26,502 nucleotides of DNA from an uncultured virus (IMG/VR IMGVR_UViG_3300027227_000002) (taxonomy: Duplodnaviria; Heunggongvirae; Uroviricota; Caudoviricetes; Crassvirales). A program made the position numbers and the translations under genes. The notes beneath the pieces are model-generated. The model made no database searches and was not told the DNA's origin. It worked only from the letters and a program-made list of their open reading frames with translations. Every line of letters begins with the position of its first letter. The first letter of the stretch is position 1. Of this stretch, positions 17,897 through 26,502 are shown one piece after another. The stretch lies in the IMG/VR virus record IMGVR_UViG_3300027227_000002; one strand, written 5' to 3'.

Positions 17897-19493
17897 AGGA
17901 TCGTGCCATCGTCACGACGGCGTTAGTACTAAGGATGGTCGTCGCTACACTGACGGCGTTCTTAAGGGCGTTCTTAGTGACCTTAAGGGGGTCGATGATA
18001 CCCATCTTATACATGTCGCCGTAGCACATCCCCTTGACGTCGTACCCCTTGTTGTCCTTATTGATGTCGAACATTATCTCCTTGGAGGAGAGCCCGGCGT
18101 TCTCAAGGATCTGCCCCAAGGGCGCTGCGAGGGCGTATGTCATGATGTCGTGGGCTATAATAGTAGCCGTATTGCTTGAGTGCATCTTATACTCGGCCTT
18201 CTGCACGAACAGGTAGTCGGACTGCTGCCATAGCGCGACACCCCCTCCGGGTAGTATGCCCTCCTCAAGGGCAGAGCGCACGGCACATACAGCGTCATCG
18301 ACGCGGTCGTATGTCTCCTTCTGCTCCACGTCGGAGTTCCCACCGACGTATATGACGCCTATCCCTCCCGTCAGGCTGGCTATACGCTGCTTGATGAAGT
18401 CACGGTCGCCCTTCTTCTGTGCGGCGTCGTGTGCACCCCATAGCTCAGCGACGCGCTTGTCGACCTCCACATTCTCACCATCATTACGCATGATGACCGT
18501 AGAGTCCTTGCCGACGATCACCTTGGCGGCACGGCCAAGGTCCGACATAGTAATAAGACTGAGGTCATCGCCCATAGCCTCACTAATGAACCGACCGCCG
18601 ACACTAACGGCAATGTCGCCCATGAGCTCCTGCTGCTTGTACCCAAACTGTGGGGGGACGATAGTACAGAGCTTCAGCCCATTCTTAATGACGTTGGCCG
18701 CCAGTGTGTTGTTGACCTGTGCGCTCACAGGCCCTACAATCAGCAAGTGCTTGCCGCCAGATATAATAGGCTTGAGGATACCCTCAATAGACAGCACGTT
18801 ACTAATCTCGTGGTCCGTCAGCAGGATGAACACGTCCTCGAGCACACACTCGTCCTTCTTATGGTTGTTGACGAACATCTTGTTGGCGTACCCACGGTCA
18901 ATCTTAATCCCGTCCGTTACCTCATAGTATGTCTGCTCGCCCATACTCTTCTCGACGGTCACAAGCCCGTTGTCACCAACCTCCTTGTATGCCTTGGCGA
19001 TGATGGACCCAATGACGGGGTCGTTATTAGCAGAGATAGACGCTACGTCATTAAGTCGTCGTGCACTGACCTTACGCGATGAGCGCTCAAGACGCCCAAT
19101 GACCTCGCCGCTGAGGCGGTTGATCTCACGTATCACCTCCGTAGCGTTGACGTCATCATTAATAAGCTCCAGCCCGCGCGTAGCGATGGCCTCCGTCAGC
19201 ACAATGGCCGTCGTCGTGCCGTCACCCGCCGTCGTAGAAGTGCGGTCAGCGGCCTCCTTCATCATGCGTACCGCAAGGTTCTCAATAGGGTGCAACAGGT
19301 CGATGCTCTTAGCTACTGTCACACCGTCCTTAGTTACAGTGATCCCGTGTGTGTGGTGCTGACTCTCAATGAGCACAGTCTTGCCGCGAGGACCGAGGGT
19401 ACTCTTGACGGCCTTACTAATTTTTCGGATGCCTTCACTCAAATGATGACGCGCGTCAGCGTCGAAGGTCAGTTGCTTGGGAGTGTAGTCCAT
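17883..19493 (-). CDS. groEL: Chaperonin GroEL (phage-encoded)
   Basis: VKSTLGPRG, TKDGVTVAK, AGDGTTTA, DRVDDAVCAVRSALEEGILPGGG and GIIDPLKV motifs; 536 aa with no GGM tail. Confidence 0.97.
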   Translation of the reverse strand: MDYTPKQLTFDADARHHLSEGIRKISKAVKSTLGPRGKTVLIESQHHTHGITVTKDGVTVAKSIDLLHPIENLAVRMMKEAADRTSTTAGDGTTTAIVLTEAIATRGLELINDDVNATEVIREINRLSGEVIGRLERSSRKVSARRLNDVASISANNDPVIGSIIAKAYKEVGDNGLVTVEKSMGEQTYYEVTDGIKIDRGYANKMFVNNHKKDECVLEDVFILLTDHEISNVLSIEGILKPIISGGKHLLIVGPVSAQVNNTLAANVIKNGLKLCTIVPPQFGYKQQELMGDIAVSVGGRFISEAMGDDLSLITMSDLGRAAKVIVGKDSTVIMRNDGENVEVDKRVAELWGAHDAAQKKGDRDFIKQRIASLTGGIGVIYVGGNSDVEQKETYDRVDDAVCAVRSALEEGILPGGGVALWQQSDYLFVQKAEYKMHSSNTATIIAHDIMTYALAAPLGQILENAGLSSKEIMFDINKDNKGYDVKGMCYGDMYKMGIIDPLKVTKNALKNAVSVATTILSTNAVVTMARSYDSE

Positions 19494-19517
19494 AACTTGA
19501 TTTGATTAGTAGTATGC

Positions 19518-19525
19518 CAAAGATA
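19518..19525 (-). promoter_or_regulatory. Bacteroidetes-type -7 promoter box (TATCTTTG) for groEL
   Basis: CAAAGATA on +, 24 nt upstream of the groEL ATG. Confidence 0.65.
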
Positions 19526-19552
19526 CAAAGGGCACTACCAATATCAAAGTCC

Positions 19553-19762
19553 ATGACAGAATGTCGATTTTACTTCCTCCCTATACTACTACTACTATTT
19601 ACTATACTGAAAGAAAAAAAATCTGTGGGAAACTGGGGTAAAAATGAGCATTTCTGTCATTTCCTATTTAACTTACTGATATATAATTAGTTATACTTTC
19701 TATTTCTGTCATAAAATGAGCACTAAAATGACAATAATTGTCACTTATTAACAGATTGTTAA
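19553..19762. repeat. AT-rich non-coding region with direct and inverted TGACA/TGTCA and AAAATGAGCA repeats
   Basis: ATTTCTGTCAT at 19650 and 19702; AAAATGAGCA at 19641 and 19713; ATGACAGAAT at 19553; palindrome TGACAAT-A-ATTGTCA at 19729-19743; TAC triplet run at ~19584-19596. Confidence 0.7.
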
Positions 19763-19790
19763 TTACTATTAGAGAAAAAAGAACCTATAG

Positions 19791-19818
19791 AAAAGAGAAA
19801 AGGGGACCGAAGCCCCCT
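19791..19818 (-). terminator. Possible Rho-independent terminator
   Basis: GGGG-ACCGAAG-CCCC hairpin with an adjacent A-rich run, just past the stop of 19846..20046. Confidence 0.5.
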
Positions 19819-19845
19819 AATCTAACCAACCAAATATGCGACTAA

Positions 19846-20046
19846 TCACTTTCGCATTCCTTCGCCTTCCATCAGATCCATCATTGCATCCATCCGGGTA
19901 GCGCGGGCAGTATTACGCTGTGCACTTAGCTGTGTTGCGTTAGCAGCAGCAGCCATACGAGACACCTTCGTAATCCCCATCTCATTCGTGGGCATGTTGT
20001 TGATCAATCGACCATCAACAACCTTCATGTCAATCATCTTTTTCAT
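19846..20046 (-). CDS. Hypothetical protein (66 aa)
   Basis: Met-rich ORF (VVDGRLIN) starting 1 nt after the upstream stop. Confidence 0.65.
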   Translation of the reverse strand: MKKMIDMKVVDGRLINNMPTNEMGITKVSRMAAAANATQLSAQRNTARATRMDAMMDLMEGEGMRK

Positions 20047-20047
20047 A

Positions 20048-20197
20048 TTACCAGTACTTAATGTGTAAACTAATTAAACCTAAATAGAGAATCCACTCCC
20101 CAACCTCTTCATCCTCGTCGCGTAGGTAAATAGAAAAACCAATTAGCGGTCCAGTTAAAATCCTGTTCTGTATCTCTATCTGCCAAAAGTCGACCAT
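20048..20197 (-). CDS. Small hypothetical protein (49 aa)
   Basis: Hand translation: MVDFWQIEIQNRILTGPLIGFSIYLRDEDEEVGEWILYLGLISLHIKYW*. A variant -7 box TACCTTTA lies at 20202-20209. Confidence 0.6.
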   Translation of the reverse strand: MVDFWQIEIQNRILTGPLIGFSIYLRDEDEEVGEWILYLGLISLHIKYW

Positions 20198-20622
20198 AGG
20201 GTAAAGGTACAAAATATATTAGACGTCTGTAGGTATTGGGTTATACCCCCACCACGCGCGCACGACCCGCCACGGAAAACCGATTTATTTTCGGGAGGGG
20301 GGGTGCGATTTCACGATTTTTTCCCGGATTTTTTGCCGTTTTCCCGGAAGACATTAGCCCACCATCAGCCGTCCACCCGTGCAATCATTGGGCATTTTAC
20401 ACGCACGCAAACAACAAGCAGTCAGCCCGCAATCGGCCGCGCCACGCCCGCCGCGCACACATAAAAGAAAGCGAACGGCAAGAGAGAGCCGTTAGCCCCC
20501 GCGCCCAATCCGTTCTCCTTAAATCTGCGAAGATTCCATTTTGAGCAAGGGAGCCTAATCTTGTATGTTGCTGATAGTCAGCGCATTTGAATCCCATACG
20601 AAAAAACTTTTTAATGTGCAAG

Positions 20623-20655
20623 TTTTTTTTTCCAAAACCTTCGCCATACACTTGC
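20623..20655 (+). promoter_or_regulatory. Putative early promoter (T-tract, CAAAACCTT, then TACACTTG)
   Basis: Lies upstream of the first + strand gene; a second copy with identical spacing is at 23879-23910; it ends in a variant of TAnnTTTG. Confidence 0.5.
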
Positions 20656-20676
20656 CCTATCAATATAAAAATCAAC

Positions 20677-20913
20677 ATGACCATGACTGCAATCAACCCC
20701 AAGAATCAGAAGCAAGTGAACAAGGCCATCAAGTACTTGACTGACCACAATGCCTATGACCTAAAGCGCAACGAAGCCGAAGGAAACGACGACATGAAGG
20801 CGTACAAGAAGTACGACCGGTTGTGTGAATCCACCTTTGACAAGTACTTGGATGCTATTGAGTTTCTGCCCAAGAATCAGGTAGACGCCATCATGAAGAG
20901 CGAACTTTATTAA
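20677..20913 (+). CDS. Hypothetical early protein
   Basis: Likely start is the ATG at 20677 or 20683 after an A-rich leader; first gene of the + strand array. Confidence 0.75.
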   Translation: MTMTAINPKNQKQVNKAIKYLTDHNAYDLKRNEAEGNDDMKAYKKYDRLCESTFDKYLDAIEFLPKNQVDAIMKSELY

Positions 20914-20933
20914 TCAATCAATCAATCAAGAAC

Positions 20934-21128
20934 ATGAAAACATTCTATGTTTACTCAATCAACACCAATGGTGAAGTCGTTTCTGCGGAATACGGAATCA
21001 AGGCCAAATCTCGCCTTGATGCTATAGAAAAATCAAGTGTAGAGAAGGTTTATTGGGAAGGAAGCCGGCCGTATGGTGTGAAGTACATCGGGAGCAAGTA
21101 CAAGGTCTATGCTAAACTACAAGGTTAA
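20934..21128 (+). CDS. Hypothetical early protein (64 aa)
   Basis: A-rich (AATC)n leader; the last codons GGT TAA form the 5' arm of hammerhead 1. Confidence 0.75.
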   Translation: MKTFYVYSINTNGEVVSAEYGIKAKSRLDAIEKSSVEKVYWEGSRPYGVKYIGSKYKVYAKLQG

Positions 21129-21172
21129 CTGACGAGGATTTAATATCCGAAACGCCGTGAGGCGTATTAACC
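21123..21172 (+). ncRNA. Type I hammerhead ribozyme HH1
   Basis: Stem I GGTTAA/TTAACC; core CTGACGA; stem II GGAT-TTAAT-ATCC; GAAA; stem III CGCC-GTGA-GGCG (GNRA loop); triplet GUA, predicted cleavage after 21166. Confidence 0.95.
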
Positions 21173-21189
21173 AAATAAAAAAAACTGAC

Positions 21190-21744
21190 ATGGCTATTAT
21201 CGCAACGGGAAAAGAATACAAACTTCAGTTAGGCACAATTCAAGAACTCGATGCCGTCATTAAGATGGTCATCAAAGGAATTCCTGACGGATTCTTTGAC
21301 TTCCAATCGAAAGGAAATCAATTCGCCACACTTGACTTGAGGGCCGACCTATCATGTGACGACCAACCACCCGTGTTCTTGGATATGTTCTACAACGGGC
21401 TAATCACGAACTACTTCCAAAACTACGACATAGAGTTGGTCACGACGCAGTCGGATTACGAGAAGGCAAGCAAGAAGTTGAATGCGGTCAACCCACGAGC
21501 ATGTTGGGAGGATGTCTTGCTACAGGTATTATCTGACGGAAATCTCGTCTTCGAAGATCGCTACCAAGGGATGACGATTGAACTCGACTTAAGTAAGGTG
21601 GGAAGCAACTTCCTGAATGCCTTCAACGATGCGCCTGATTACTTTATGGAACTTGTACTACTTCACGCCAACGGAGGGTCGGACGGAATCACCTACGACT
21701 CTTGGCTTCAAATGGGGACATACGGAGAAGTAATCTACGGATAG
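21190..21744 (+). CDS. Hypothetical early protein (184 aa; C-terminal WLQMGTYGEVIYG)
   Basis: Likely start is the ATG at 21190, since the track's GTG at 21157 lies inside the ribozyme. Acidic; the D..lQ....GE..YG end motif is one I recall from uncharacterised phage proteins. Confidence 0.8.
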   Translation: MAIIATGKEYKLQLGTIQELDAVIKMVIKGIPDGFFDFQSKGNQFATLDLRADLSCDDQPPVFLDMFYNGLITNYFQNYDIELVTTQSDYEKASKKLNAVNPRACWEDVLLQVLSDGNLVFEDRYQGMTIELDLSKVGSNFLNAFNDAPDYFMELVLLHANGGSDGITYDSWLQMGTYGEVIYG

Positions 21745-21795
21745 GTTAACTGACGAGTCCTAAATGGACGAAACCTGCTTCGGCAGGTCTTAACC
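21744..21795 (+). ncRNA. Type I hammerhead ribozyme HH2
   Basis: Stem I GGTTAA/TTAACC; CTGACGA; stem II GTCC-TAAAT-GGAC; GAAA; stem III CCTGC-TTCG-GCAGG (cUUCGg loop); triplet GUC, predicted cleavage after 21789. Confidence 0.97.
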
Positions 21796-21810
21796 AACAA
21801 AATAATCACG

Positions 21811-22110
21811 ATGAAAAACATCACAAACGAATCCGTTCAAGCGTTTATGAATGCTGTTCCCTTCAAGAAATCCAATATGCGGGTTGAAGTTTTAGAGAAC
21901 GTCACGATTCTGCGTCTACACGGAAATGTTATTGCGTACCGCTACAATGACCCTGAACGTACTTTGTCCATCACGAACTGCGGATGGTTCAGCAAAACGA
22001 CAAAGGAGCGTCTGAATGGAATCCCGAGCGTATCAATCAAGCAGAAAAACTTCAATTGGTACTTGAATGGTACTGAATGGAATGGTGATTTAATTGACAT
22101 TAAAGGTTAA
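21811..22110 (+). CDS. Hypothetical early protein (99 aa; LHGNVIA...GWFSKTTKERLN...Q....WY)
   Basis: ORF with an A-rich leader between HH2 and HH3; ends GGT TAA in the HH3 stem I arm. Confidence 0.85.
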   Translation: MKNITNESVQAFMNAVPFKKSNMRVEVLENVTILRLHGNVIAYRYNDPERTLSITNCGWFSKTTKERLNGIPSVSIKQKNFNWYLNGTEWNGDLIDIKG

Positions 22111-22161
22111 CTGACGAGGATTCAATATCCGAAATGCCGACTACACATCGGCATCTTAACC
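22105..22161 (+). ncRNA. Type I hammerhead ribozyme HH3
   Basis: Stem I GGTTAA/TTAACC; CTGACGA; stem II GGAT-TCAAT-ATCC; GAAA; stem III TGCCGA-CTACACA-TCGGCA; triplet AUC, predicted cleavage after 22155. Confidence 0.95.
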
Positions 22162-22179
22162 AACTAAATCAACAATACT

Positions 22180-22410
22180 ATGAAAACAATTGATGACTAC
22201 AAAAAGATGCCGAAAAGCGCACTTGCGGAGAAATGGTTTTGGCTACATAACATTCCGACCACATTCCTTGGAGAGGTTGTTTGGTTAGATTTTGGGAATT
22301 TTGAAATCGAAGTAGCGGAATCGGATGTTGAGTATAGAGCGAATGAATTCCTTCGCCTATTAGAAAATGACTTGATAAAACAGCCATTCAAGGGAATTTT
22401 ATTGGATTAA
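22180..22410 (+). CDS. Hypothetical early protein (76 aa)
   Basis: ORF between HH3 and HH4 with an A-rich leader. Confidence 0.8.
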   Translation: MKTIDDYKKMPKSALAEKWFWLHNIPTTFLGEVVWLDFGNFEIEVAESDVEYRANEFLRLLENDLIKQPFKGILLD

Positions 22411-22415
22411 ATTTA

Positions 22416-22472
22416 GGCATACTGATGAGGGCTGAATGCCCGAAACACGGACTACACATCCGTGTCTATGTC
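22416..22472 (+). ncRNA. Type I hammerhead ribozyme HH4
   Basis: Stem I GGCATA/TATGTC (one G-U; extendable with bulges to 22402/22485); CTGATGA; stem II GGGC-TGAAT-GCCC; GAAA; stem III CACGGA-CTACACA-TCCGTG; triplet GUC, predicted cleavage after 22466. Confidence 0.95.
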
Positions 22473-22499
22473 AAATTTTAACCAACGCAAACAATTACA

Positions 22500-22898
22500 A
22501 TGAAAACCACGACTGAAGTTGAATGCATGAATGATTGGTGCGACTTTACCCACGAGAAGGGGTACTGCACTTGTGATAATGAATCTTTAAATGAGAAGAC
22601 GATGAAGAAATCAAATGAATTTGTGGCTACTTGCCCCGCACTTGTTTGGTCAGCAGAAGATGTTGACCTCAACATTGACCGACTCTATGAGTCAGAGGTT
22701 ATTGACCATGTGAGTGCAAACAAACTAAAGGAGATATCTAATGAAGACAAACTTCTTTGGTTAGAGCAGATACTTGAGGATTGTCACGATGAGTTTTGTC
22801 AGATTATCAATGAGCGAATCGGAGATGCTATCTACGACTACTATCGCAGTACGCCTATGGGTAAGGAAGAAGTTGGTTACATTAAATACAATAAGTAA
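22500..22898 (+). CDS. Hypothetical acidic early protein (132 aa; N-terminal Cys cluster)
   Basis: ORF directly after HH4; CMNDWC...CTC near the N-terminus. Confidence 0.75.
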   Translation: MKTTTEVECMNDWCDFTHEKGYCTCDNESLNEKTMKKSNEFVATCPALVWSAEDVDLNIDRLYESEVIDHVSANKLKEISNEDKLLWLEQILEDCHDEFCQIINERIGDAIYDYYRSTPMGKEEVGYIKYNK

Positions 22899-23183
22899 AT
22901 GGAAGCGTATCTTAAATTCTTGAACGACCCCAACCCGCCAACACATTTGGCGGAGGATGAGTTGTGGGAGTACTATGGTGGAGATTGCTATGGCGACATC
23001 TCTTACTATGCCTTCTTACTATGTAGGTTTGGCGAAGCATCTAATTGGACTACGGCTATGATTATGGCTGACAAGTGGTCGGATTGGGATAGGCAAAACA
23101 AAACCCTTACTGAAGGAATGAGTGGTTACGACTCGTTACTGCATTGGTTGAATGTTGAATATGTTGGACTTTATTATAAGTAA
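22899..23183 (+). CDS. Hypothetical early protein (94 aa)
   Basis: Abuts the upstream stop (TAA-ATG). Confidence 0.75.
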   Translation: MEAYLKFLNDPNPPTHLAEDELWEYYGGDCYGDISYYAFLLCRFGEASNWTTAMIMADKWSDWDRQNKTLTEGMSGYDSLLHWLNVEYVGLYYK

Positions 23184-23229
23184 GATGACGACCTTATTTA
23201 AAAACGAGGAGTAAAACAAAAACTACAAT

Positions 23230-23427
23230 ATGATACTCTTTGAATATCACGAATCAGACGATGACGATGCATCTATCTACGGCTTGACCTTCGAGGAGGT
23301 CAACGATTGGATACAAGACCACAACGAGTACTACGAAACCAACTACCAAACTATTCAGGAGTTTAATGATGGTGAAATGTACCGGGAGTTTATTGTAAGT
23401 GAAATGGAAAACGCAAATCTAAATTAA
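23230..23427 (+). CDS. Small highly acidic protein (65 aa)
   Basis: D/E-rich and aromatic-rich, with no Lys and one Arg; A-rich leader. Confidence 0.75.
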   Translation: MILFEYHESDDDDASIYGLTFEEVNDWIQDHNEYYETNYQTIQEFNDGEMYREFIVSEMENANLN

Positions 23428-23429
23428 AT

Positions 23430-23696
23430 ATGAAGGCAAGAATGACAACAATCTCCGAGCATGAGTTCATGCCGTGCGATGCGGAGGTATTGTTCACTTG
23501 GGTGGACGAGAACGGGAATTCCGGGTGGAATTCTGCATACGGCAAGGCCGGTCAAAGCATCAAGGAAGTCCTTGATGGTCGCATGAAGAGAATGTATTCC
23601 AATTGGGATGGTTCTTATGAGATGATGCGGAACATGTCCGTGTCTATTGATGTAAGCGGAAAGTCCGTTAACACACTCTTATCCTTGACTCGTTGA
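23430..23696 (+). CDS. Hypothetical early protein (88 aa)
   Basis: Starts 2 nt after the upstream stop. Confidence 0.7.
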   Translation: MKARMTTISEHEFMPCDAEVLFTWVDENGNSGWNSAYGKAGQSIKEVLDGRMKRMYSNWDGSYEMMRNMSVSIDVSGKSVNTLLSLTR

Positions 23697-23699
23697 GTC

Positions 23700-23840
23700 A
23701 TGGATAAAAAAACAATGATTAATGAAATCATGGCTGACCACGCTTGGATTAATTCCAAGAATGTGAATCCCAAACGAAGAGGAATCCTCCGGGACATTGA
23801 GGCCATCGTGGAGGACTTGTGTGAAACACACGACTACTGA
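23700..23840 (+). CDS. Small hypothetical protein (46 aa)
   Basis: Hand translation: MDKKTMINEIMADHAWINSKNVNPKRRGILRDIEAIVEDLCETHDY*; fills the gap. Confidence 0.6.
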   Translation: MDKKTMINEIMADHAWINSKNVNPKRRGILRDIEAIVEDLCETHDY

Positions 23841-23878
23841 TTCGGGTAGCCGTACAACAAAAATAGTTACTGACCAAA

Positions 23879-23910
23879 TTTTTTATTCAAAACCTTATTC
23901 AAACATTTGC
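23879..23910 (+). promoter_or_regulatory. Putative early promoter, second copy (T-tract, CAAAACCTT, then AACATTTG)
   Basis: Aligns without gaps to the 20624-20655 element; ATG follows 4 nt after the TTTG. Confidence 0.5.
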
Positions 23911-23913
23911 AAT

Positions 23914-24141
23914 ATGGAAACAACAAGAGAAGCCCTCCTCGCCATGCGAGTGGGAGAGATGAAGGACATCGTGTTCAGCAACGGCGTCCTCAATAGCACC
24001 AAAGAGATGTGCCGAAACTCCGATGTGGAGTGGGAGGTGAATAGTTTCACCGAGGGGTGGATAACCGCCTACATGACCTTGGAAGAGGCCGTGGATTATG
24101 TAGAGGGCCGTAAGGGCTTTGATGACTTTGAGTGGGAATAA
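23914..24141 (+). CDS. Hypothetical early protein (75 aa)
   Basis: Likely start is the ATG at 23914 (METTREALL...). Confidence 0.7.
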   Translation: METTREALLAMRVGEMKDIVFSNGVLNSTKEMCRNSDVEWEVNSFTEGWITAYMTLEEAVDYVEGRKGFDDFEWE

Positions 24142-24151
24142 TTTATTGATT

Positions 24152-24412
24152 ATGAGAAACAAAGAGCAACCATGGGAAGTGTTTGATGGGGGTGTCTACG
24201 AAGACCTCCTCCTTGACACCCAAATTGAATACAAAGCCGAGCGCATTGTAGCAGAGGACGAGTGGGGTACTGAAATTCAGTACCATGTGTACGATGTGCG
24301 GGTGACCTTGCGTCACAACAAGCACCAAGTAGGCGTCCATTTGGACAATCTCTTTAAGTATGAACTTGAGGAAACCATCGGCAGTTACCTCACTAAACTT
24401 TACGAACGATGA
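24152..24412 (+). CDS. Hypothetical early protein (86 aa)
   Basis: Likely start is the ATG at 24152 (MRNKEQPW...); ATGA overlap with the next gene. Confidence 0.7.
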   Translation: MRNKEQPWEVFDGGVYEDLLLDTQIEYKAERIVAEDEWGTEIQYHVYDVRVTLRHNKHQVGVHLDNLFKYELEETIGSYLTKLYER

Positions 24413-24612
24413 AAATTAAATTCAATGGTGATAGCATTGCTATCTACACCTCAACCAACGGACACCAAACGAAAGTCCGCATCGACCACATGGTCAGAGA
24501 CGAGCGTTGTCTTGGAGGACACAAGGTCCACATCAAGACAATCGCCAAAGGGAGACCAAGCAAGAGCCCCTTCCGCTATGCTCCTATTAATAGAATAAAG
24601 TTTTTGTCATGA
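24409..24612 (+). CDS. Basic hypothetical protein (67 aa)
   Basis: ATGA overlaps at both ends. Confidence 0.7.
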   Translation: MKIKFNGDSIAIYTSTNGHQTKVRIDHMVRDERCLGGHKVHIKTIAKGRPSKSPFRYAPINRIKFLS

Positions 24613-24779
24613 AGAAGATAGCATCGGGACTTGTGTTCTTACTATTCATTTTTATTTCCCTTGCGGGAATCACTCTTGGTGCTATGTTCTACCAAGAGGG
24701 TGTCAACGAAGGCATGGGCATAGCCCTTATTTCCGCCACCATTTTTCTGCTTTTATTAATCACACCTAAAGAAAATTAA
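24609..24779 (+). CDS. Small two-TM membrane protein (56 aa)
   Basis: Hand translation: MKKIASGLVFLLFIFISLAGITLGAMFYQEGVNEGMGIALISATIFLLLLITPKEN*. Confidence 0.7.
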   Translation: MKKIASGLVFLLFIFISLAGITLGAMFYQEGVNEGMGIALISATIFLLLLITPKEN

Positions 24780-24781
24780 TC

Positions 24782-25534
24782 ATGCCGAATTGGGTATATT
24801 CTACAATCAAAACGAAAGCAAAGAATGAAGCGTTCGTTAAGGAAGTCATGGACAAAGGGGGACTCTGCGAGTTCTACTTACCCATGCCGGATGAAATCCG
24901 TTTCACCAACTCCCCAAACCGAATCATAAGCAAGGAAGAGTACGCCATCAAGGAGGCCTTGGGGCAGACGAGAGAAGAGGAAAAACACATGGTCGGTTAT
25001 TATCAGACACAAGAGATGGTTGATCAACTCAAGGCCAAGTACGGAGCAGCGAATTGGTACGAGTGGGCGTACATCTATTGGGGCACGAAGTGGGGCGATG
25101 GCCAGATGGAGTATCAAGTTGCGGGGGATGACCTTATTATTAGGTACCAAAGCGCATGGTCACCCGTGAGTTGGGACATCGTTGAGAACTTCATCGGTCA
25201 CCTTGTTGATGCCGACTACATTTGGGAGGAGGAGCAAGGATTCGGGGCGCAAATCATCTATGAGGATGGGCAGTTCGCGAGCATGGTAGAGTGGGACATC
25301 CCGGTCTTCAGCCATTGGGCGTACTTGGATAGCGACACACCATCAAACGACTTGGATGGAAAGCCACGCGAGGGTAAGTTTGTACAGATTGTTTACGCCT
25401 ATCTTTCGGAGGAATTTGAGAATAATATGGGCGTATACGAGAAGGGGTGGCACTGCTATTCAGAGTGGCATAGCGAGAGCAGTCTCGTCACTGACCCCGA
25501 GTTAATTGCTAAACTTGAATCTGTCAAGGAATGA
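24782..25534 (+). CDS. DUF1281/YubB-like ferredoxin-like domain protein
   Basis: Signature MPNW at the N-terminus, NWYEW....WGTKW and Y.SAWSP. Confidence 0.8.
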   Translation: MPNWVYSTIKTKAKNEAFVKEVMDKGGLCEFYLPMPDEIRFTNSPNRIISKEEYAIKEALGQTREEEKHMVGYYQTQEMVDQLKAKYGAANWYEWAYIYWGTKWGDGQMEYQVAGDDLIIRYQSAWSPVSWDIVENFIGHLVDADYIWEEEQGFGAQIIYEDGQFASMVEWDIPVFSHWAYLDSDTPSNDLDGKPREGKFVQIVYAYLSEEFENNMGVYEKGWHCYSEWHSESSLVTDPELIAKLESVKE

Positions 25535-25671
25535 AAAAGAATGATAAGGTCATGGAGCAGTTCATGCGAATTGCAATGGCGAGACTAAAGAGCGACTACC
25601 GATTTGCGCCACAACGCAGAGCAATTGCCGCCCGTATGTATACTAAATGGTTAAATAGGAATGATGTTTAA
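25531..25671 (+). CDS. Small basic hypothetical protein (46 aa)
   Basis: Hand translation: MKKNDKVMEQFMRIAMARLKSDYRFAPQRRAIAARMYTKWLNRNDV*; ATGA overlap. Confidence 0.65.
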   Translation: MKKNDKVMEQFMRIAMARLKSDYRFAPQRRAIAARMYTKWLNRNDV

Positions 25672-25822
25672 GTTGACCTTTGTACCTACCCTACGCAACA
25701 ACCTTGCGGTTAAAAGTTGTGTGTTCATGCGCCAAGCCAATTCGGCAGAGGAGTTAGCGAACATGAAGTACGATGTGCCGAACCCTCTTGAATGGATGTT
25801 AGAATCTATTGAAGAGATGTGA
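25661..25822 (+). CDS. Small hypothetical protein (53 aa)
   Basis: Hand translation: MMFKLTFVPTLRNNLAVKSCVFMRQANSAEELANMKYDVPNPLEWMLESIEEM*. Confidence 0.55.
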   Translation: MMFKLTFVPTLRNNLAVKSCVFMRQANSAEELANMKYDVPNPLEWMLESIEEM

Positions 25823-25823
25823 G

Positions 25824-26048
25824 ATGGAGTACCTTGAAGAGAAGAGGTGCAACTCGTGTCACCAAATGAAGTCCGCTGATCGTTTCACAATACAAAAGAA
25901 GAACGGCGTTGACTCCTACTATAAGGGGAGATGCAAGGACTGCTATGTGGAGTACCGCAGAAAGCGCAAGGCATTAGGAAGCAAAGAGGGTGTGCGTGTA
26001 GACCCCGGCAAGGATAGTCCTCCGTGGAAGCACATCTCTTGGCTGTGA
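25824..26048 (+). CDS. Small CxxC...CxxC zinc-finger protein
   Basis: KRCNSCHQMKSADRF...CKDC resembles the Zn finger found N-terminal to many phage HNH/EndoVII proteins; no nuclease domain follows. Confidence 0.7.
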   Translation: MEYLEEKRCNSCHQMKSADRFTIQKKNGVDSYYKGRCKDCYVEYRRKRKALGSKEGVRVDPGKDSPPWKHISWL

Positions 26049-26375
26049 GTTGGTCTTGGGGGGGTGGTGGATGTAATGGATGATGGAAGCCACCTCTCCC
26101 CACTCAGTCAAAGTGTAAAATGAAAACACCACAAAGTGTAAAATACTGCACCTTAACACGGAAAAATTTAGAATTACGCAAGAATTTATACCAATAGTGC
26201 AATACTCGGCACAAAAATGAACCAAAAGTGTGACAATATCTCAAATCGCAATACGCAATAAATCAAATGAGATGATGGAAAGCCCCACCATTAAAGGATG
26301 TTAAGGCATATAATGATGGGAAAAGAAATCAAATCATACGCAACAACATATAGAAACCTTTAACACCAAAGAGAA

Positions 26376-26502
26376 ATGAAAAACAAAATGGCAAAATTTA
26401 AGAAAGGCGACCGAGTTCGCTACATTAGAGAAGTTGGAGATGATGGTGTCGTGTCTGGAAGTTTGGGTACTGTAGATGAAAACGACAGCATTAGCCCCTA
26501 TG
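26376..26502 (+). CDS. Hypothetical protein with KOW/SH3-like start (partial)
   Basis: MKNKMAKFKKGDRVRYIREVGDDGVVSGSLGTVDE..., open at the window end. Confidence 0.7.
   Translation, partial: MKNKMAKFKKGDRVRYIREVGDDGVVSGSLGTVDENDSISPY

What the first reader, a model, noticed from the sequence alone, without database searches (positions are those of the whole stretch)
21123..22472. Four hammerhead ribozymes punctuate consecutive genes of a phage early operon
Seen: four consecutive intergenic spaces each hold a complete type I hammerhead (CUGANGA, GAAA, NUH triplets GUA/GUC/AUC/GUC) on the coding strand. Stem sequences differ yet stay paired (stem II GGAT/ATCC, GTCC/GGAC, GGGC/GCCC; four different stem IIIs; stem I GGTTAA/TTAACC versus GGCATA/TATGTC), which indicates selection on structure. 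Predicted cuts (after 21166, 21789, 22155, 22466) fall 23, 21, 24 and 33 nt before the next ATG. Established: hammerheads self-cleave to give 2',3'-cyclic phosphate and 5'-OH ends, and they are known from bacterial and phage sequence, mostly without assigned function. Inference: a protein-free mRNA-processing system cuts the first early transcript into single-gene RNAs, analogous to the RNase III sites of the T7 early region but independent of host enzymes.
Basis: partly seen in the sequence, partly recalled or inferred. Interest (0 to 1): 0.95.

Follow-up and report, generated by a model that had tools for sequence, protein, structure and literature searches.

The report
Hammerhead ribozymes between phage genes
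Four self-cutting hammerhead RNA motifs really do sit between five consecutive small genes of an uncultured phage, probably chopping one long message into single-gene pieces, but this layout has been known in phages since 2011 and cutting was not shown here.

Summary
Four complete type I hammerhead motifs lie on the coding strand at 21123-21172, 21744-21795, 22105-22161 and 22416-22472. Predicted cuts fall after 21166, 21789, 22155 and 22466, which is 23, 21, 24 and 33 nt before the next ATG. None appeared in 300 shuffles.

A covariance model built only from other phages finds exactly these four, at 53-77 bits, and nothing else in the window. Rfam's curated thresholds miss all four.

They belong to a stereotyped, widespread phage subclass:
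- a 6-bp stem I flanked by A on both sides;
- a 13-nt stem II hairpin;
- the upstream stop codon in or touching stem I;
- a start codon a median of 24 nt after the cut.

Arrays of up to 9 occur in other viral contigs. Cellulophaga phage phi19:3, a cultured phage, carries one hammerhead of this subclass plus a pistol ribozyme in one operon.

Perreault et al. 2011 already proposed it and partly tested it. Cleavage is not shown here, and contigs from RNA libraries bridge three of the four cut sites.

Earlier notes of this scan describe the same layout on other DNA. Verdict: a new member of a known kind, of moderate interest.

The parts
21123..21172 (+). Hammerhead E1 (type I). Stem I GGUUAA/UUAACC, stem II GGAU/AUCC with loop UUAAU, stem III CGCC/GGCG. 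Predicted cut after 21166 (GUA).
   Evidence: 71.7 bits with model R2
21744..21795 (+). Hammerhead E2 (type I). Stem I GGUUAA/UUAACC, stem II GUCC/GGAC with loop UAAAU, stem III CCUGC/GCAGG. Predicted cut after 21789 (GUC).
   Evidence: 77.3 bits; Rfam Hammerhead_1 30.2 bits, below its cutoff of 34
22105..22161 (+). Hammerhead E3 (type I). Stem I GGUUAA/UUAACC, stem II GGAU/AUCC with loop UCAAU, stem III UGCCG/CGGCA with loop ACUACACAU. Predicted cut after 22155 (AUC).
   Evidence: 66.1 bits
22416..22472 (+). Hammerhead E4 (type I). Stem I GGCAUA/UAUGUC, stem II GGGC/GCCC with loop UGAAU, stem III CACGG/CCGUG with the same loop ACUACACAU as E3. Predicted cut after 22466 (GUC).
   Evidence: 53.2 bits
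22402..22485 (+). Predicted outer extension of E4's stem I. An A/U-rich helix with bulges whose ends (GGAUUAA / UUAACC) resemble stem I of E1-E3.
   Evidence: the 91-nt fold gives -26.1 kcal/mol, z -4.18, and 0 of 200 shuffles fold as well
20934..21128 (+). 64-aa ORF of unknown function. Its stop codon TAA (21126-21128) is the last three bases of E1's stem I 5' strand.
21190..21744 (+). 184-aa ORF of unknown function, bracketed by E1 and E2. Its stop TAG overlaps the first G of E2's stem I.
21811..22110 (+). 99-aa ORF (Pfam PF23790 Kyano_Gp96, phrog_554, function unknown), bracketed by E2 and E3. Its stop TAA lies inside E3's stem I.
22180..22410 (+). 76-aa ORF of unknown function, bracketed by E3 and E4.
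22500..22898 (+). 132-aa ORF of unknown function, the first gene after E4. From here on the genes abut or overlap and no hammerhead follows.
21167..21189 (+). Leader left on the downstream RNA after the E1 cut: 23 nt, A-rich, no Shine-Dalgarno motif. The equivalent leaders are 21790-21810, 22156-22179 and 22467-22499.
   Evidence: repeat family D2, TCTTAACCAAC
20922..23425 (+). Segment that is mosaic relative to the close relative L130, whose backbone is 95-97% identical on both sides. All four hammerheads lie inside it.

Best explanation
The four elements are functional type I hammerhead ribozymes of a phage-specific subclass. Each works as RNA 'punctuation' between cistrons of one rightward transcript of small accessory, probably early, genes.

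Proposed mechanism:
1. As RNA polymerase passes each intergenic space, the roughly 50-nt element folds and cuts itself after H17.
2. Because the topology is type I, the whole ribozyme body stays on the 3' end of the upstream mRNA. That body is the stem II and stem III hairpins, ending in a 2',3'-cyclic phosphate. The stop codon sits in or next to stem I, about 40 nt from that new end.
3. The downstream mRNA begins with a 5'-OH, six bases of stem I (UUAACC) and a short A-rich leader. The start codon therefore lies 21-33 nt from the new 5' end.
4. The result is a set of single-gene mRNAs. Their stability and translation no longer depend on their neighbours or on a host RNase.

What is shown here: the motifs, their class membership, their exact fit between stop and start codons, the conservation of that architecture across about 150 elements in other viral contigs, and intact catalytic cores.

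What is inferred: self-cleavage of these four, co-transcription of the genes, early timing, and the effects on stability and translation.
For: Core and three helices are present in all four elements. 0 of 300 shuffles give a hit. The independent model R2 finds only these four.

Subclass survey. 106 of 127 loci hold at least one complete type I hammerhead by my scanner, and 21 hold none. Among 155 distinct elements, the window's four included:
- stem I is exactly 6 bp in 148 of 155;
- it is flanked by A on the 5' side in 144 of 148 and on the 3' side in 145 of 148;
- the stem II hairpin is 13 nt in 140 of 155.

Placement:
- 147 of 155 have an ATG-ORF within 120 nt of the cut, median 24 nt, quartiles 21 and 31;
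- 130 of 155 have an upstream ORF stop within -60..+9 nt of the element's start;
- in 64 of 155 that stop is the TAA inside stem I.

Core integrity. Among 153 three-helix candidates in 131 loci plus the window, 153 have no core substitution and 0 have one.

Stem variation. 13 of 14 modelled pairs show changes on both sides across 89 rows. In the window, E3 and E4 share the stem III loop ACUACACAU but have different, fully paired stems.

Relatives. The element after the 184-aa gene in L128 (97% aa identity) keeps the core but has another paired stem III.

No terminator-like site lies on the + strand between 20900 and 23400.

Arrays recur: 9 in L007, 5 in L048, 4 each in L051 and L001, and 5 and 4 in two MAG contigs.

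In the cultured Cellulophaga phage phi19:3, a hammerhead of this subclass (56.9 bits, between gp051 and gp050) shares an operon with a pistol ribozyme (46.5 bits against a cutoff of 34.5). Two unrelated self-cleaving classes in equivalent slots point to cleavage itself as the selected activity.

Literature:
- Perreault 2011 (passages) showed that three tandem prophage arrangements cleave in vitro and one cleaves in vivo.
- cyPhyRNA-seq (PMC8782182, passages) detected in vivo cleavage of three type II hammerheads in D. vulgaris.
Against: No cleavage data exist for these elements.

Contigs from estuary RNA libraries bridge three of the four cut sites: E1 (X5 21112-21360), E2 (X1 21554-21860, X5 21696-21871) and E4 (X1 22374-22668). 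No place was reported where many molecules begin or end. If these contigs derive from RNA, cutting is incomplete. They may also be DNA carry-over.

E1-E3 have only a 6-bp stem I and no recognisable loop-bulge or pseudoknot contact. Perreault 2011 (passage) states that such contacts raise activity by orders of magnitude at low Mg2+. These elements could therefore be slow at physiological Mg2+.

With 30-nt flanks, the minimum-energy folds of E2 and E3 are alternative structures that break stem I.

Rfam's curated Hammerhead_1 threshold is not reached.

The survey is biased. Its loci were fetched with a pattern containing part of the core, and the rows used for pair counts were chosen by a scanner that demands pairing.

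Relatives carry the 184-aa gene without a hammerhead on one side: L130 has none upstream and L131 none downstream. The ribozyme is therefore dispensable for that gene.
Confidence: 0.6

Rival explanations
1. The hammerheads are mainly DNA-level junction modules of exchangeable gene cassettes. Their conserved sequence (stem I plus core) would provide short homology for recombination that shuffles accessory genes between phages, and RNA cleavage would be secondary.
For: All 4 of 4 window hammerheads and all 3 of 3 in the close relative L130 lie inside the 2-2.5 kb mosaic segment, which is flanked by backbone of 95-97% identity.

The homology block of the 184-aa gene starts at 21168-21177 and ends at 21744, 21797 or 21831 in three relatives, which is at the hammerhead edges.

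L130 carries an E3-like element where the window has E2, and an E1-like element in front of a gene that has none in the window.

In an all-against-all blastn of the loci, 34 of 540 internal block ends fall within a hammerhead +-12 nt, against 10.9 expected if ends were uniform.

Copies within one contig share stem I in 70 of 108 pairs (permuted mean 24.7, maximum 40). Whole stem II hairpins match in only 6 of 108 pairs and whole stem III hairpins in 5 of 108.

Against: Block ends are just as common at gene boundaries without a hammerhead: 22897/22905, 23188, 23215, 23426/23428, 23923 and 24142-24159. Mosaicism is therefore general to this region, and intergenic spaces of any kind would be enriched.

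A pure DNA role does not explain intact catalytic cores (153 of 153), compensatory stem changes, strand specificity, or the fixed distance to start codons.

The block ends counted are not independent of each other.
Confidence: 0.15
2. Cleavage is not constitutive punctuation but a condition for translation or a tuning device. The cut would create a 5'-OH end 21-33 nt before the start codon, and ribosomes of a Shine-Dalgarno-poor (Bacteroidota-type) host would need or prefer that end. Alternatively, slow minimal ribozymes would set the ratio of cut to uncut message, for example in response to Mg2+ or to ribosomes stopping inside stem I.
For: The spacing from cut to ATG is narrow (median 24 nt, quartiles 21 and 31, n=147).

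The four window leaders are A-rich and have no Shine-Dalgarno motif.

The nearest cultured phages by GroEL infect Flavobacterium (38% identity).

The stop codon of the upstream gene lies inside stem I in 64 of 155 elements. A terminating ribosome and the folded ribozyme therefore exclude each other.

Bridging contigs in RNA libraries are compatible with partial cutting.

Lopez-Galiano et al. 2026 (PMC13725137, abstract only) report that hammerhead self-cleavage in 5' UTRs of RNA viruses is essential for, and sufficient to induce, cap-independent translation in eukaryotic hosts.
Against: Many members of the subclass sit in front of clear Shine-Dalgarno-like leaders (aaggaaa, aaaggag) in other contigs, so the class is not tied to hosts that lack them.

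Short leaders are expected anyway in compact phage genomes.

No ligand-binding or switch element is visible.

The translation precedent is eukaryotic.
Confidence: 0.15
3. Pairs of hammerheads excise gene-length RNAs that circularise, either by the ribozyme's reverse reaction or by a host RtcB-type ligase. This would give circular phage mRNAs, as with retrozymes and viroids.
For: E1, E2 and E3 have the same stem I. The RNA between two cuts would therefore carry a 5' UUAACC that can pair with the GGUUAA of its own 3'-terminal ribozyme and bring the two ends together.

Stem I is shared within contigs in 70 of 108 pairs.
Against: E4 has a different stem I, as do the tandem copies in several other contigs such as L003, L065, L020 and L002.

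No back-joint was reported among the contigs laid on the region, although depth was low.

Perreault 2011 looked for circular or spliced products and found none (passage).

The earlier scan note e1-5689541 also found no support.
Confidence: 0.03
4. The motifs are inactive relics, or simply protective or terminator-like hairpins that happen to match the hammerhead consensus.
For: No tertiary stabilising contact is recognisable in E1-E3.

Rfam thresholds are not met.

Contigs bridge three of the four cut sites.
Against: 0 of 300 shuffles give a match.

All 11 core positions, the G10.1-C11.1 pair and the A15.1-U16.1 pair are intact in the four, and the core is intact in 153 of 153 structured relatives.

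Loss in relatives is by absence of the whole element, not by decay of the core.

No run of U follows stem III, so the elements are not intrinsic terminators.
Confidence: 0.05

Closest known systems
Clustered hammerhead ribozymes flanking single genes or short gene blocks in prophages (Perreault et al. 2011, PLoS Comput Biol, PMC3088659; passages read)
   Same: Several same-strand hammerheads sit between consecutive phage genes. The proposed role is processing of a long phage transcript into single-gene mRNAs. The flanked genes vary and are mostly of unknown function.
   Different: In the passages I read, the tested examples are triple arrangements in bacterial genomes (C. scindens, A. caulinodans, A. 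tumefaciens). The window instead holds four type I elements of one stereotyped subclass in an uncultured lytic-looking phage. [quoted passage not shown] PDF alignments may break strings, so I cannot tell whether the subclass is in their data set.
Rfam RF00163 Hammerhead_1 (type I hammerhead family)
   Same: Same topology (stem I open) and the same core. E2's stem II hairpin is close to the family consensus GUCC-CAAAU-GGAC (alignment).
   Different: The model expects a very short stem III. Only E2 scores, at 30.2 bits and below the 34-bit cutoff. At gathering thresholds, none of the window's four and none of the 25 elements in seven other loci is reported.
RNase III processing sites between the early genes of phage T7 (recalled knowledge; no paper read here)
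   Same: Intergenic RNA structures cut one early polycistronic transcript into gene-length mRNAs. A hairpin is left at the 3' end of the upstream product.
   Different: T7 depends on a host protein enzyme and gives 5'-phosphate and 3'-OH ends. Here the RNA would cut itself and give 5'-OH and 2',3'-cyclic-phosphate ends. This is an analogy only, not membership.
Synthetic ribozyme insulators such as RiboJ (recalled knowledge; no paper read here)
   Same: A self-cleaving ribozyme placed just upstream of a ribosome-binding region removes upstream RNA, so that expression of the gene no longer depends on context.
   Different: Those are engineered, and RiboJ adds a hairpin on the downstream product. 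The natural type I layout here leaves only 6 nt of stem I on the downstream RNA.
Pistol, twister and other self-cleaving classes found near hammerheads in phage-like DNA (Weinberg et al. 2019 review, PMC6765202, passages)
   Same: They occupy the same kind of genomic slot. In Cellulophaga phage phi19:3 a pistol ribozyme lies about 1.3 kb downstream of a hammerhead of this subclass, in the same operon.
   Different: Their folds are unrelated. None was found in the window itself.

Membership tests
Hammerhead ribozyme class (biochemical definition) | Conserved core C3 U4 G5 A6 N7 G8 A9 ... G12 A13 A14, A15.1-U16.1 pair, H17 (not G) at the cleavage site | tested here: met
   All four elements carry CUGA(C/U)GA, GAAA and U-H, with H = A, C, C, C.
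Hammerhead ribozyme class (biochemical definition) | Three helices radiating from the core, with a G10.1-C11.1 pair closing stem II | tested here: met
   Stems are 6/4/4, 6/4/5, 6/4/6 and 6/4/6 bp. Every stem II begins with G and ends with C. The hammerhead fold is the minimum-energy fold of each isolated element.
Hammerhead ribozyme class (biochemical definition) | Helices supported by covariation among relatives | tested here: met
   13 of 14 pairs change on both sides across 89 rows. The covariation score is 0.757 against 0.159 when shuffled and at most 0.117 when slid. Caveat: the rows were chosen by a scanner that demands pairing. Independent hints come from E3 versus E4 and from the window versus L128 and L130.
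Hammerhead ribozyme class (biochemical definition) | Site-specific self-cleavage giving 2',3'-cyclic phosphate and 5'-OH ends | not testable with these tools
   Only assembled contigs of RNA libraries were available. They cannot show RNA ends, and some bridge the cut sites.
Hammerhead ribozyme class (biochemical definition) | Tertiary contact between stem I and loop II (or a pseudoknot), needed for fast cleavage at physiological Mg2+ | tested here: inconclusive
   No consistent Watson-Crick pseudoknot between loop II and the flanks emerged from reading. However, stem I is fixed at 6 bp (148 of 155), the flanking A's are conserved (144 and 145 of 148), and the loop pattern U-N-A-N-U is conserved. 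These suggest an unmodelled contact. E4 has a predicted extended, bulged stem I.
Type I topology | Stem I open (5' and 3' ends of the motif), stems II and III closed by loops | tested here: met
Rfam RF00163 Hammerhead_1 as curated | Score at or above the gathering cutoff of 34 bits | tested here: not met
   There are 0 matches at gathering thresholds. In E-value mode E2 reaches 30.2 bits, and E1, E3 and E4 give no RF00163 row at E<=10. This reflects the model's short stem III, not a missing core feature.
Clustered phage hammerheads (Perreault 2011) | Two or more hammerheads close together, on the same strand as the genes, flanking single genes or short gene blocks in phage DNA | tested here: met
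   Four elements within 1.35 kb each separate two + strand ORFs. The phage context is shown by tail fibre, GroEL/ES and endonuclease VII-like matches.
T7-type RNase III early-mRNA processing | Long double-stranded hairpins cut by host RNase III | tested here: not met
   The elements are three-way junctions with 4-7 bp helices and a hammerhead core, not RNase III-type duplexes. This is a functional analogy only.

The most novel reading that the evidence does not exclude
The hammerheads are the expression adaptor of a plug-and-play cassette system. In the hypervariable, promoter-proximal part of the early operon, each newly acquired accessory gene would arrive or be installed with a type I hammerhead that cuts it free of whatever lies upstream. 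Every processed mRNA of one phage would then begin with the same genome-specific 5'-OH tag (here UUAACCAA), about 24 nt before the start codon. That tag could matter for ribosome loading, or for recognition by a phage or host factor, in hosts that make little use of Shine-Dalgarno pairing. The same conserved stem I plus core would double as the recombination site that shuffles the cassettes.
Probability: 0.15. Interest if true: 0.7.

Novelty: new member of a known kind. Interest (0 to 1): 0.35.

Why it matters
What bacterial and phage hammerheads do has been an open question since 2011. The 2019 review still says the purpose needs to be defined. This locus does not change the picture, but it is an unusually clean example: four ribozymes, five genes, and each intergenic space consisting of nothing but the ribozyme and a leader of about 24 nt.

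The survey around it gives testable regularities:
- a 6-bp stem I flanked by A's;
- the stop codon inside stem I;
- a fixed distance from cut to start codon;
- a stem I sequence shared within a genome;
- placement in the mosaic, promoter-proximal segment.

It also gives three practical leads:
1. Rfam's curated thresholds miss this whole subclass, so routine annotation under-reports it.
2. The locus is present in public estuary RNA libraries whose raw reads could show the RNA ends.
3. Cellulophaga phage phi19:3, a cultured phage, carries a hammerhead of the subclass and a pistol ribozyme in one operon. That offers a laboratory system.

Tried and rejected
- **Rfam.** At gathering thresholds the window gave nothing. 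In E-value mode the RAGATH-1-hammerhead matches (20.2 bits against a cutoff of 56.3, E about 4) and the snoRNA and sRNA matches are noise.
- **Other elements in the window.** I looked for further or degenerate hammerheads with two covariance models, filters off. The next best hit scores 10.9 bits.
- **Whole genome.** None is held for this window.
- **blastn of 20000-26502 against cultured phages.** No match.
- **RNA evidence.** Only assembled contigs at low depth were available. They showed no start or end pile-ups and no joints. Stretches without cover (for example around E3 and 22172-22338) say nothing. No contig end coincides exactly with a cut; the nearest begins at 21162, five bases before the E1 cut.
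- **Function of the flanked genes.** PHROGs, Pfam, NCBIfam and the protein atlas gave only families of unknown function. No link to anti-defence genes such as ardA could be made.
- **Promoters.** The sigma-70 scan is at chance level (8 found, 9.6 expected). The Bacteroidetes-type motif TTTG-N17-21-TANNTTTG (motif recalled) occurs once, upstream of GroEL on the - strand, with 0.47 expected. TANNTTTG alone is not enriched (25 found against 20.2 expected). No promoter could be assigned to the + strand operon.
- **Pseudoknot.** None is consistent between loop II and the flanks (reading).
- **The slot after the 184-aa gene in L131.** It holds a GC-rich Y-shaped fold in place of a hammerhead, but z is only -1.1 and Rfam finds nothing. 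I rejected it as evidence for a second ribozyme.
- **Perreault 2011 supplements.** Four motif strings were not found in 11 files, which is not conclusive.
- **Literature.** A search for Cellulophaga + ribozyme + phage returned one unrelated review. The searches turned up no paper that describes this subclass or a tested function for phage hammerhead arrays beyond Perreault 2011.


Full report
**1. The observation**

The sequence between 21123 and 22472 holds four elements with the full hammerhead consensus in type I order: stem I 5' strand, CUGANGA, stem II hairpin, GAAA, stem III hairpin, U-H, stem I 3' strand. A scanner that I wrote demands the core words and all three helices. It finds exactly four hits in the 26.5-kb window, all on the + strand:

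| Element | Coordinates | Stems I/II/III (bp) | Cut after | Nt to next ATG |
|---|---|---|---|---|
| E1 | 21123-21172 | 6/4/4 | 21166 | 23 |
| E2 | 21744-21795 | 6/4/5 | 21789 | 21 |
| E3 | 22105-22161 | 6/4/6 | 22155 | 24 |
| E4 | 22416-22472 | 6/4/6 | 22466 | 33 |

- With relaxed stem limits, 0 of 300 dinucleotide-preserving shuffles gave a single hit.
- A core-only pattern is at chance level (4 found, 3.6 expected), so the helices carry the signal.
- Each isolated element has the hammerhead structure as its minimum-energy fold.

Rfam reports nothing at gathering thresholds. In E-value mode only E2 matches Hammerhead_1, at 30.2 bits against a cutoff of 34. The alignment shows that the model expects a much shorter stem III.

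**2. Independent class membership**

I scanned the viral contig collection with a pattern made of the end of stem I and part of the core. My scanner finds at least one complete type I hammerhead in 106 of these 127 loci and none in 21.

From 80 such elements I built covariance model R2. None of the 80 came from the window or from its relatives. With filters off, R2 finds in the window only the four elements, at 77.3, 71.7, 66.1 and 53.2 bits, and nothing else at E<=1. An earlier model that included window rows gave the same four, with 10.9 bits as the next best score. The window therefore holds four members of a class defined by other phages, and no degenerate copies.

**3. Anatomy of the subclass**

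Among 155 distinct elements, the window's four and those of its relatives included:

- stem I is exactly 6 bp in 148 of 155;
- it is flanked by A on the 5' side in 144 of 148 and on the 3' side in 145 of 148;
- the stem II hairpin is 13 nt in 140 of 155, mostly 4 bp plus a loop of the form U-N-A-N-U;
- N7 is C in 121, U in 30, G in 2 and A in 2;
- H17 is C in 133 and A in 22.

Across 89 aligned rows, 13 of 14 modelled pairs change on both sides. These rows were chosen by a scanner that demands pairing, so the 99.9% of cells paired is by construction.

A scan that keeps the three helices but allows one core substitution found 153 candidates in 131 loci plus the window. All 153 have an intact core, none has one substitution, and shuffled loci give none. 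At least one element per locus is intact by the way the loci were fetched. However, 34 elements carry an N7 other than the C that the fetching pattern requires, so that pattern cannot have matched them.

Two relatives carry a variant with an extra U after A9 (L130 5377-5438 and L128 2208-2350). The L128 copy also has a large insertion in stem II.

**4. Fit between genes**

In the window, the stop codon of the upstream ORF is the TAA inside stem I for E1 and E3. For E2 it overlaps the first base of stem I. For E4 it lies 5 nt before the inner stem I.

Across the 155 elements:

- 147 have an ATG-ORF within 120 nt of the cut, with median distance 24 nt and quartiles 21 and 31;
- 130 have an upstream ORF stop within -60..+9 nt of the element;
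- in 64 that stop is the TAA in stem I.

The intergenic space thus consists of the ribozyme and a short leader and nothing else. The four window leaders are A-rich and lack a Shine-Dalgarno motif. The motif UUAACCAAC recurs after E2 and E3, and again just downstream of E4.

E4 differs in one respect. Its 6-bp stem I sits inside a predicted longer, bulged A/U helix whose ends resemble stem I of E1-E3 (-26.1 kcal/mol, z -4.18).

**5. Context**

The window is phage DNA. On the - strand lie tail-fibre proteins of 1484 and 1658 aa and GroEL/GroES. On the + strand, from about 20.7 kb, lies a run of small ORFs of unknown function, ending with an endonuclease VII-like ORF.

- GroEL is closest to an uncultured phage (56% identity) and then to Flavobacterium phages (38%). 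This, with the leaders lacking a Shine-Dalgarno motif, suggests a Bacteroidota host, which is an inference.
- No terminator-like site lies on the + strand between 20900 and 23400.
- No promoter could be assigned.
- 'Early operon' is therefore plausible but not shown.
- The flanked genes have no known function. The 99-aa ORF matches PF23790 Kyano_Gp96 and phrog_554.

**6. Relatives**

Four viral contigs encode the 184-aa protein at 83-97% identity. L130 is a close relative. Its backbone is 95-97% identical over window 17943-20921 and 23426-26112, but the stretch between is mosaic.

- All four window hammerheads and all three L130 hammerheads lie in that mosaic stretch.
- The homology block of the 184-aa gene begins at 21168-21177 and ends at 21744, 21797 or 21831 in three relatives, which is at the ribozyme edges.
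- After this gene, L128 has a hammerhead with the same core but another paired stem III, followed by a different gene.
- L130 has an E3-like element there. L131 has none.
- L130 has no hammerhead in front of the gene but keeps the leader from AACC onward.
- Block ends are also common at gene boundaries without a hammerhead (22897/22905, 23188, 23215, 23426/23428, 23923, 24142-24159).

In an all-against-all comparison of the loci, 34 of 540 internal block ends lie within a hammerhead +-12 nt, against 10.9 expected under uniformity. Intergenic spaces in general are expected to be enriched, and the ends are not independent. I conclude that the ribozymes live in, and move with, the cassette-like variable part of the operon. 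I do not conclude that they cause the shuffling.

**7. Arrays elsewhere**

- 33 of 98 contigs hold two or more distinct elements.
- L007 has 9 in 6 kb, L048 has 5, and L051 and L001 have 4 each.
- Two MAG contigs have 5 and 4.
- Within a contig, copies share the stem I sequence in 70 of 108 pairs (permuted mean 24.7, maximum 40). Whole stem II hairpins are identical in 6 of 108 pairs and whole stem III hairpins in 5 of 108.
- The stricter GGTTAA form occurs in only 15 stretches of 185,579 species genomes, all on MAG contigs.
- Rfam at gathering thresholds reports no hammerhead in seven loci that hold 25 of these elements.

In the cultured Cellulophaga phage phi19:3, a member of the subclass lies between gp051 and gp050, with the stop codon in stem I (56.9 bits). 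A pistol ribozyme (46.5 bits against a cutoff of 34.5) lies about 1.3 kb further along the same operon.

**8. RNA evidence**

Eighteen estuary and marine metatranscriptome runs hold parts of the stretch. Four of them were laid on 19500-24500. They are kept as assembled contigs at low depth, so they cannot show RNA ends, strand or level.

- Contigs bridge E1 (X5 21112-21360), E2 (X1 21554-21860, X5 21696-21871) and E4 (X1 22374-22668).
- No joints and no pile-ups of ends were reported.

This neither shows nor excludes cleavage. If the bridging contigs are RNA, cutting is incomplete. They may instead be DNA carry-over.

**9. Mechanism**

The best-supported reading is constitutive, co-transcriptional self-cleavage that separates the cistrons.

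- The type I topology puts both hairpins and the 2',3'-cyclic phosphate on the 3' end of the upstream mRNA, about 40 nt after its stop codon.
- It leaves only six bases of stem I and a short unstructured leader, with a 5'-OH, on the downstream mRNA.
- From established knowledge of RNA decay (recalled, not tested here), a structured 3' end without a free 3'-OH and a 5' end without a monophosphate should both slow exonucleolytic and 5'-end-dependent decay.
- A hammerhead and a pistol ribozyme in equivalent slots of one cultured phage operon argue that cleavage itself is the selected activity.

Against this reading:

- E1-E3 show no recognisable tertiary contact.
- E2 and E3 have competing folds once flanks are included.
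- Bridging contigs exist.
- The ribozyme is dispensable next to the 184-aa gene in some relatives.

I put this reading at 0.6. The rivals are:

| Rival | Confidence |
|---|---|
| DNA-level cassette-junction role | 0.15 |
| Translation-enabling or tuning role | 0.15 |
| Inactive relics | 0.05 |
| Circular RNAs | 0.03 |

**10. Comparison with what is known**

Perreault et al. 2011 (passages) state that multiple hammerheads often flank individual genes or short gene blocks in prophages. [quoted passage not shown] They report that three tandem arrangements cleave in vitro and one in vivo, and that they could detect neither circular nor spliced products.

The 2019 review by Weinberg, Weinberg and Hammann (passages) repeats the hypothesis and says more work is needed to define the purpose. 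cyPhyRNA-seq detected in vivo cleavage of three type II hammerheads in D. vulgaris (passages). Lopez-Galiano et al. 2026 (abstract) report that self-cleavage in viral 5' UTRs can drive translation initiation in eukaryotes.

Earlier notes of this scan describe the same layout on other DNA. They include a hammerhead-bounded unit that is missing at the DNA level in a near-identical phage (e1-5689541) and a five-ribozyme array (e1-2559831).

The finding is therefore a new member of a known kind.

- the stereotyped subclass;
- its exact fit between stop and start codons;
- a stem I sequence shared within a genome;
- its placement in the mosaic, promoter-proximal segment;
- Rfam's curated thresholds reported none of the 29 elements tested;
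- a culturable phage that carries it.

Noticed in passing
L132 13384-13451 (+), Cellulophaga phage phi19:3 KC821608.1: A pistol ribozyme (RF02679, 46.5 bits against a cutoff of 34.5) lies between gp046 and gp045. It sits about 1.3 kb downstream of a hammerhead of the window's subclass (L132 12000-12059), in the same operon of a cultured phage. Neither is annotated in the record.
   Followed up: partly
L130 5377-5438 and L128 2208-2350: Two hammerhead variants in the window's relatives carry an extra U between A9 and the G of stem II. The L128 copy also has an insertion of about 60 nt in stem II and an enlarged stem III. They score 58 and 32.9 bits with model R2.
   Followed up: partly
L131 4569-4613: In the slot after the 184-aa gene, where the window, L128 and L130 have a hammerhead, L131 has a GC-rich Y-shaped fold of two hairpins closed by a 6-bp stem. 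The fold is not better than shuffles (z -1.1) and matches no Rfam family.
   Followed up: yes
window 20050-20676: About 630 nt between the divergent gene groups have no convincing ORF and are partly GC-rich (20230-20560). The stretch is 95.6% identical in L130. No RNA family or tRNA was found there.
   Followed up: no
window 22133-22145 and 22444-22456: E3 and E4 share the 9-nt stem III loop ACUACACAU, while their stem III helices differ at every pair. L130's E3-like element has the same loop. The loop may itself be under selection.
   Followed up: no
window 19518-19548 (-): The only match in the window to the Bacteroidetes-type promoter pattern TTTG-N17-21-TANNTTTG (motif recalled) lies about 25 nt upstream of the GroEL start. 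0.47 matches are expected by chance, so this is a weak hint about the host.
   Followed up: partly
L140 and L142 (two contigs of one MAG labelled Aliivibrio sp.): These are dense arrays of the same hammerhead subclass: 5 elements in 3.0 kb and 4 in 1.8 kb.
   Followed up: no
window 21744-21774, run X1: One contig of an RNA library matches only the first 31 nt of E2 and then continues as a different hammerhead stem III and leader. A second hammerhead-bearing phage sequence is therefore present in the same sample.
   Followed up: no
L007 1572-5843: Nine type I hammerheads lie within 4.3 kb of one viral contig, each 20-30 nt before an ATG that is preceded by the shared leader words 'ttattatg'. 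This is the largest array seen here.
   Followed up: no
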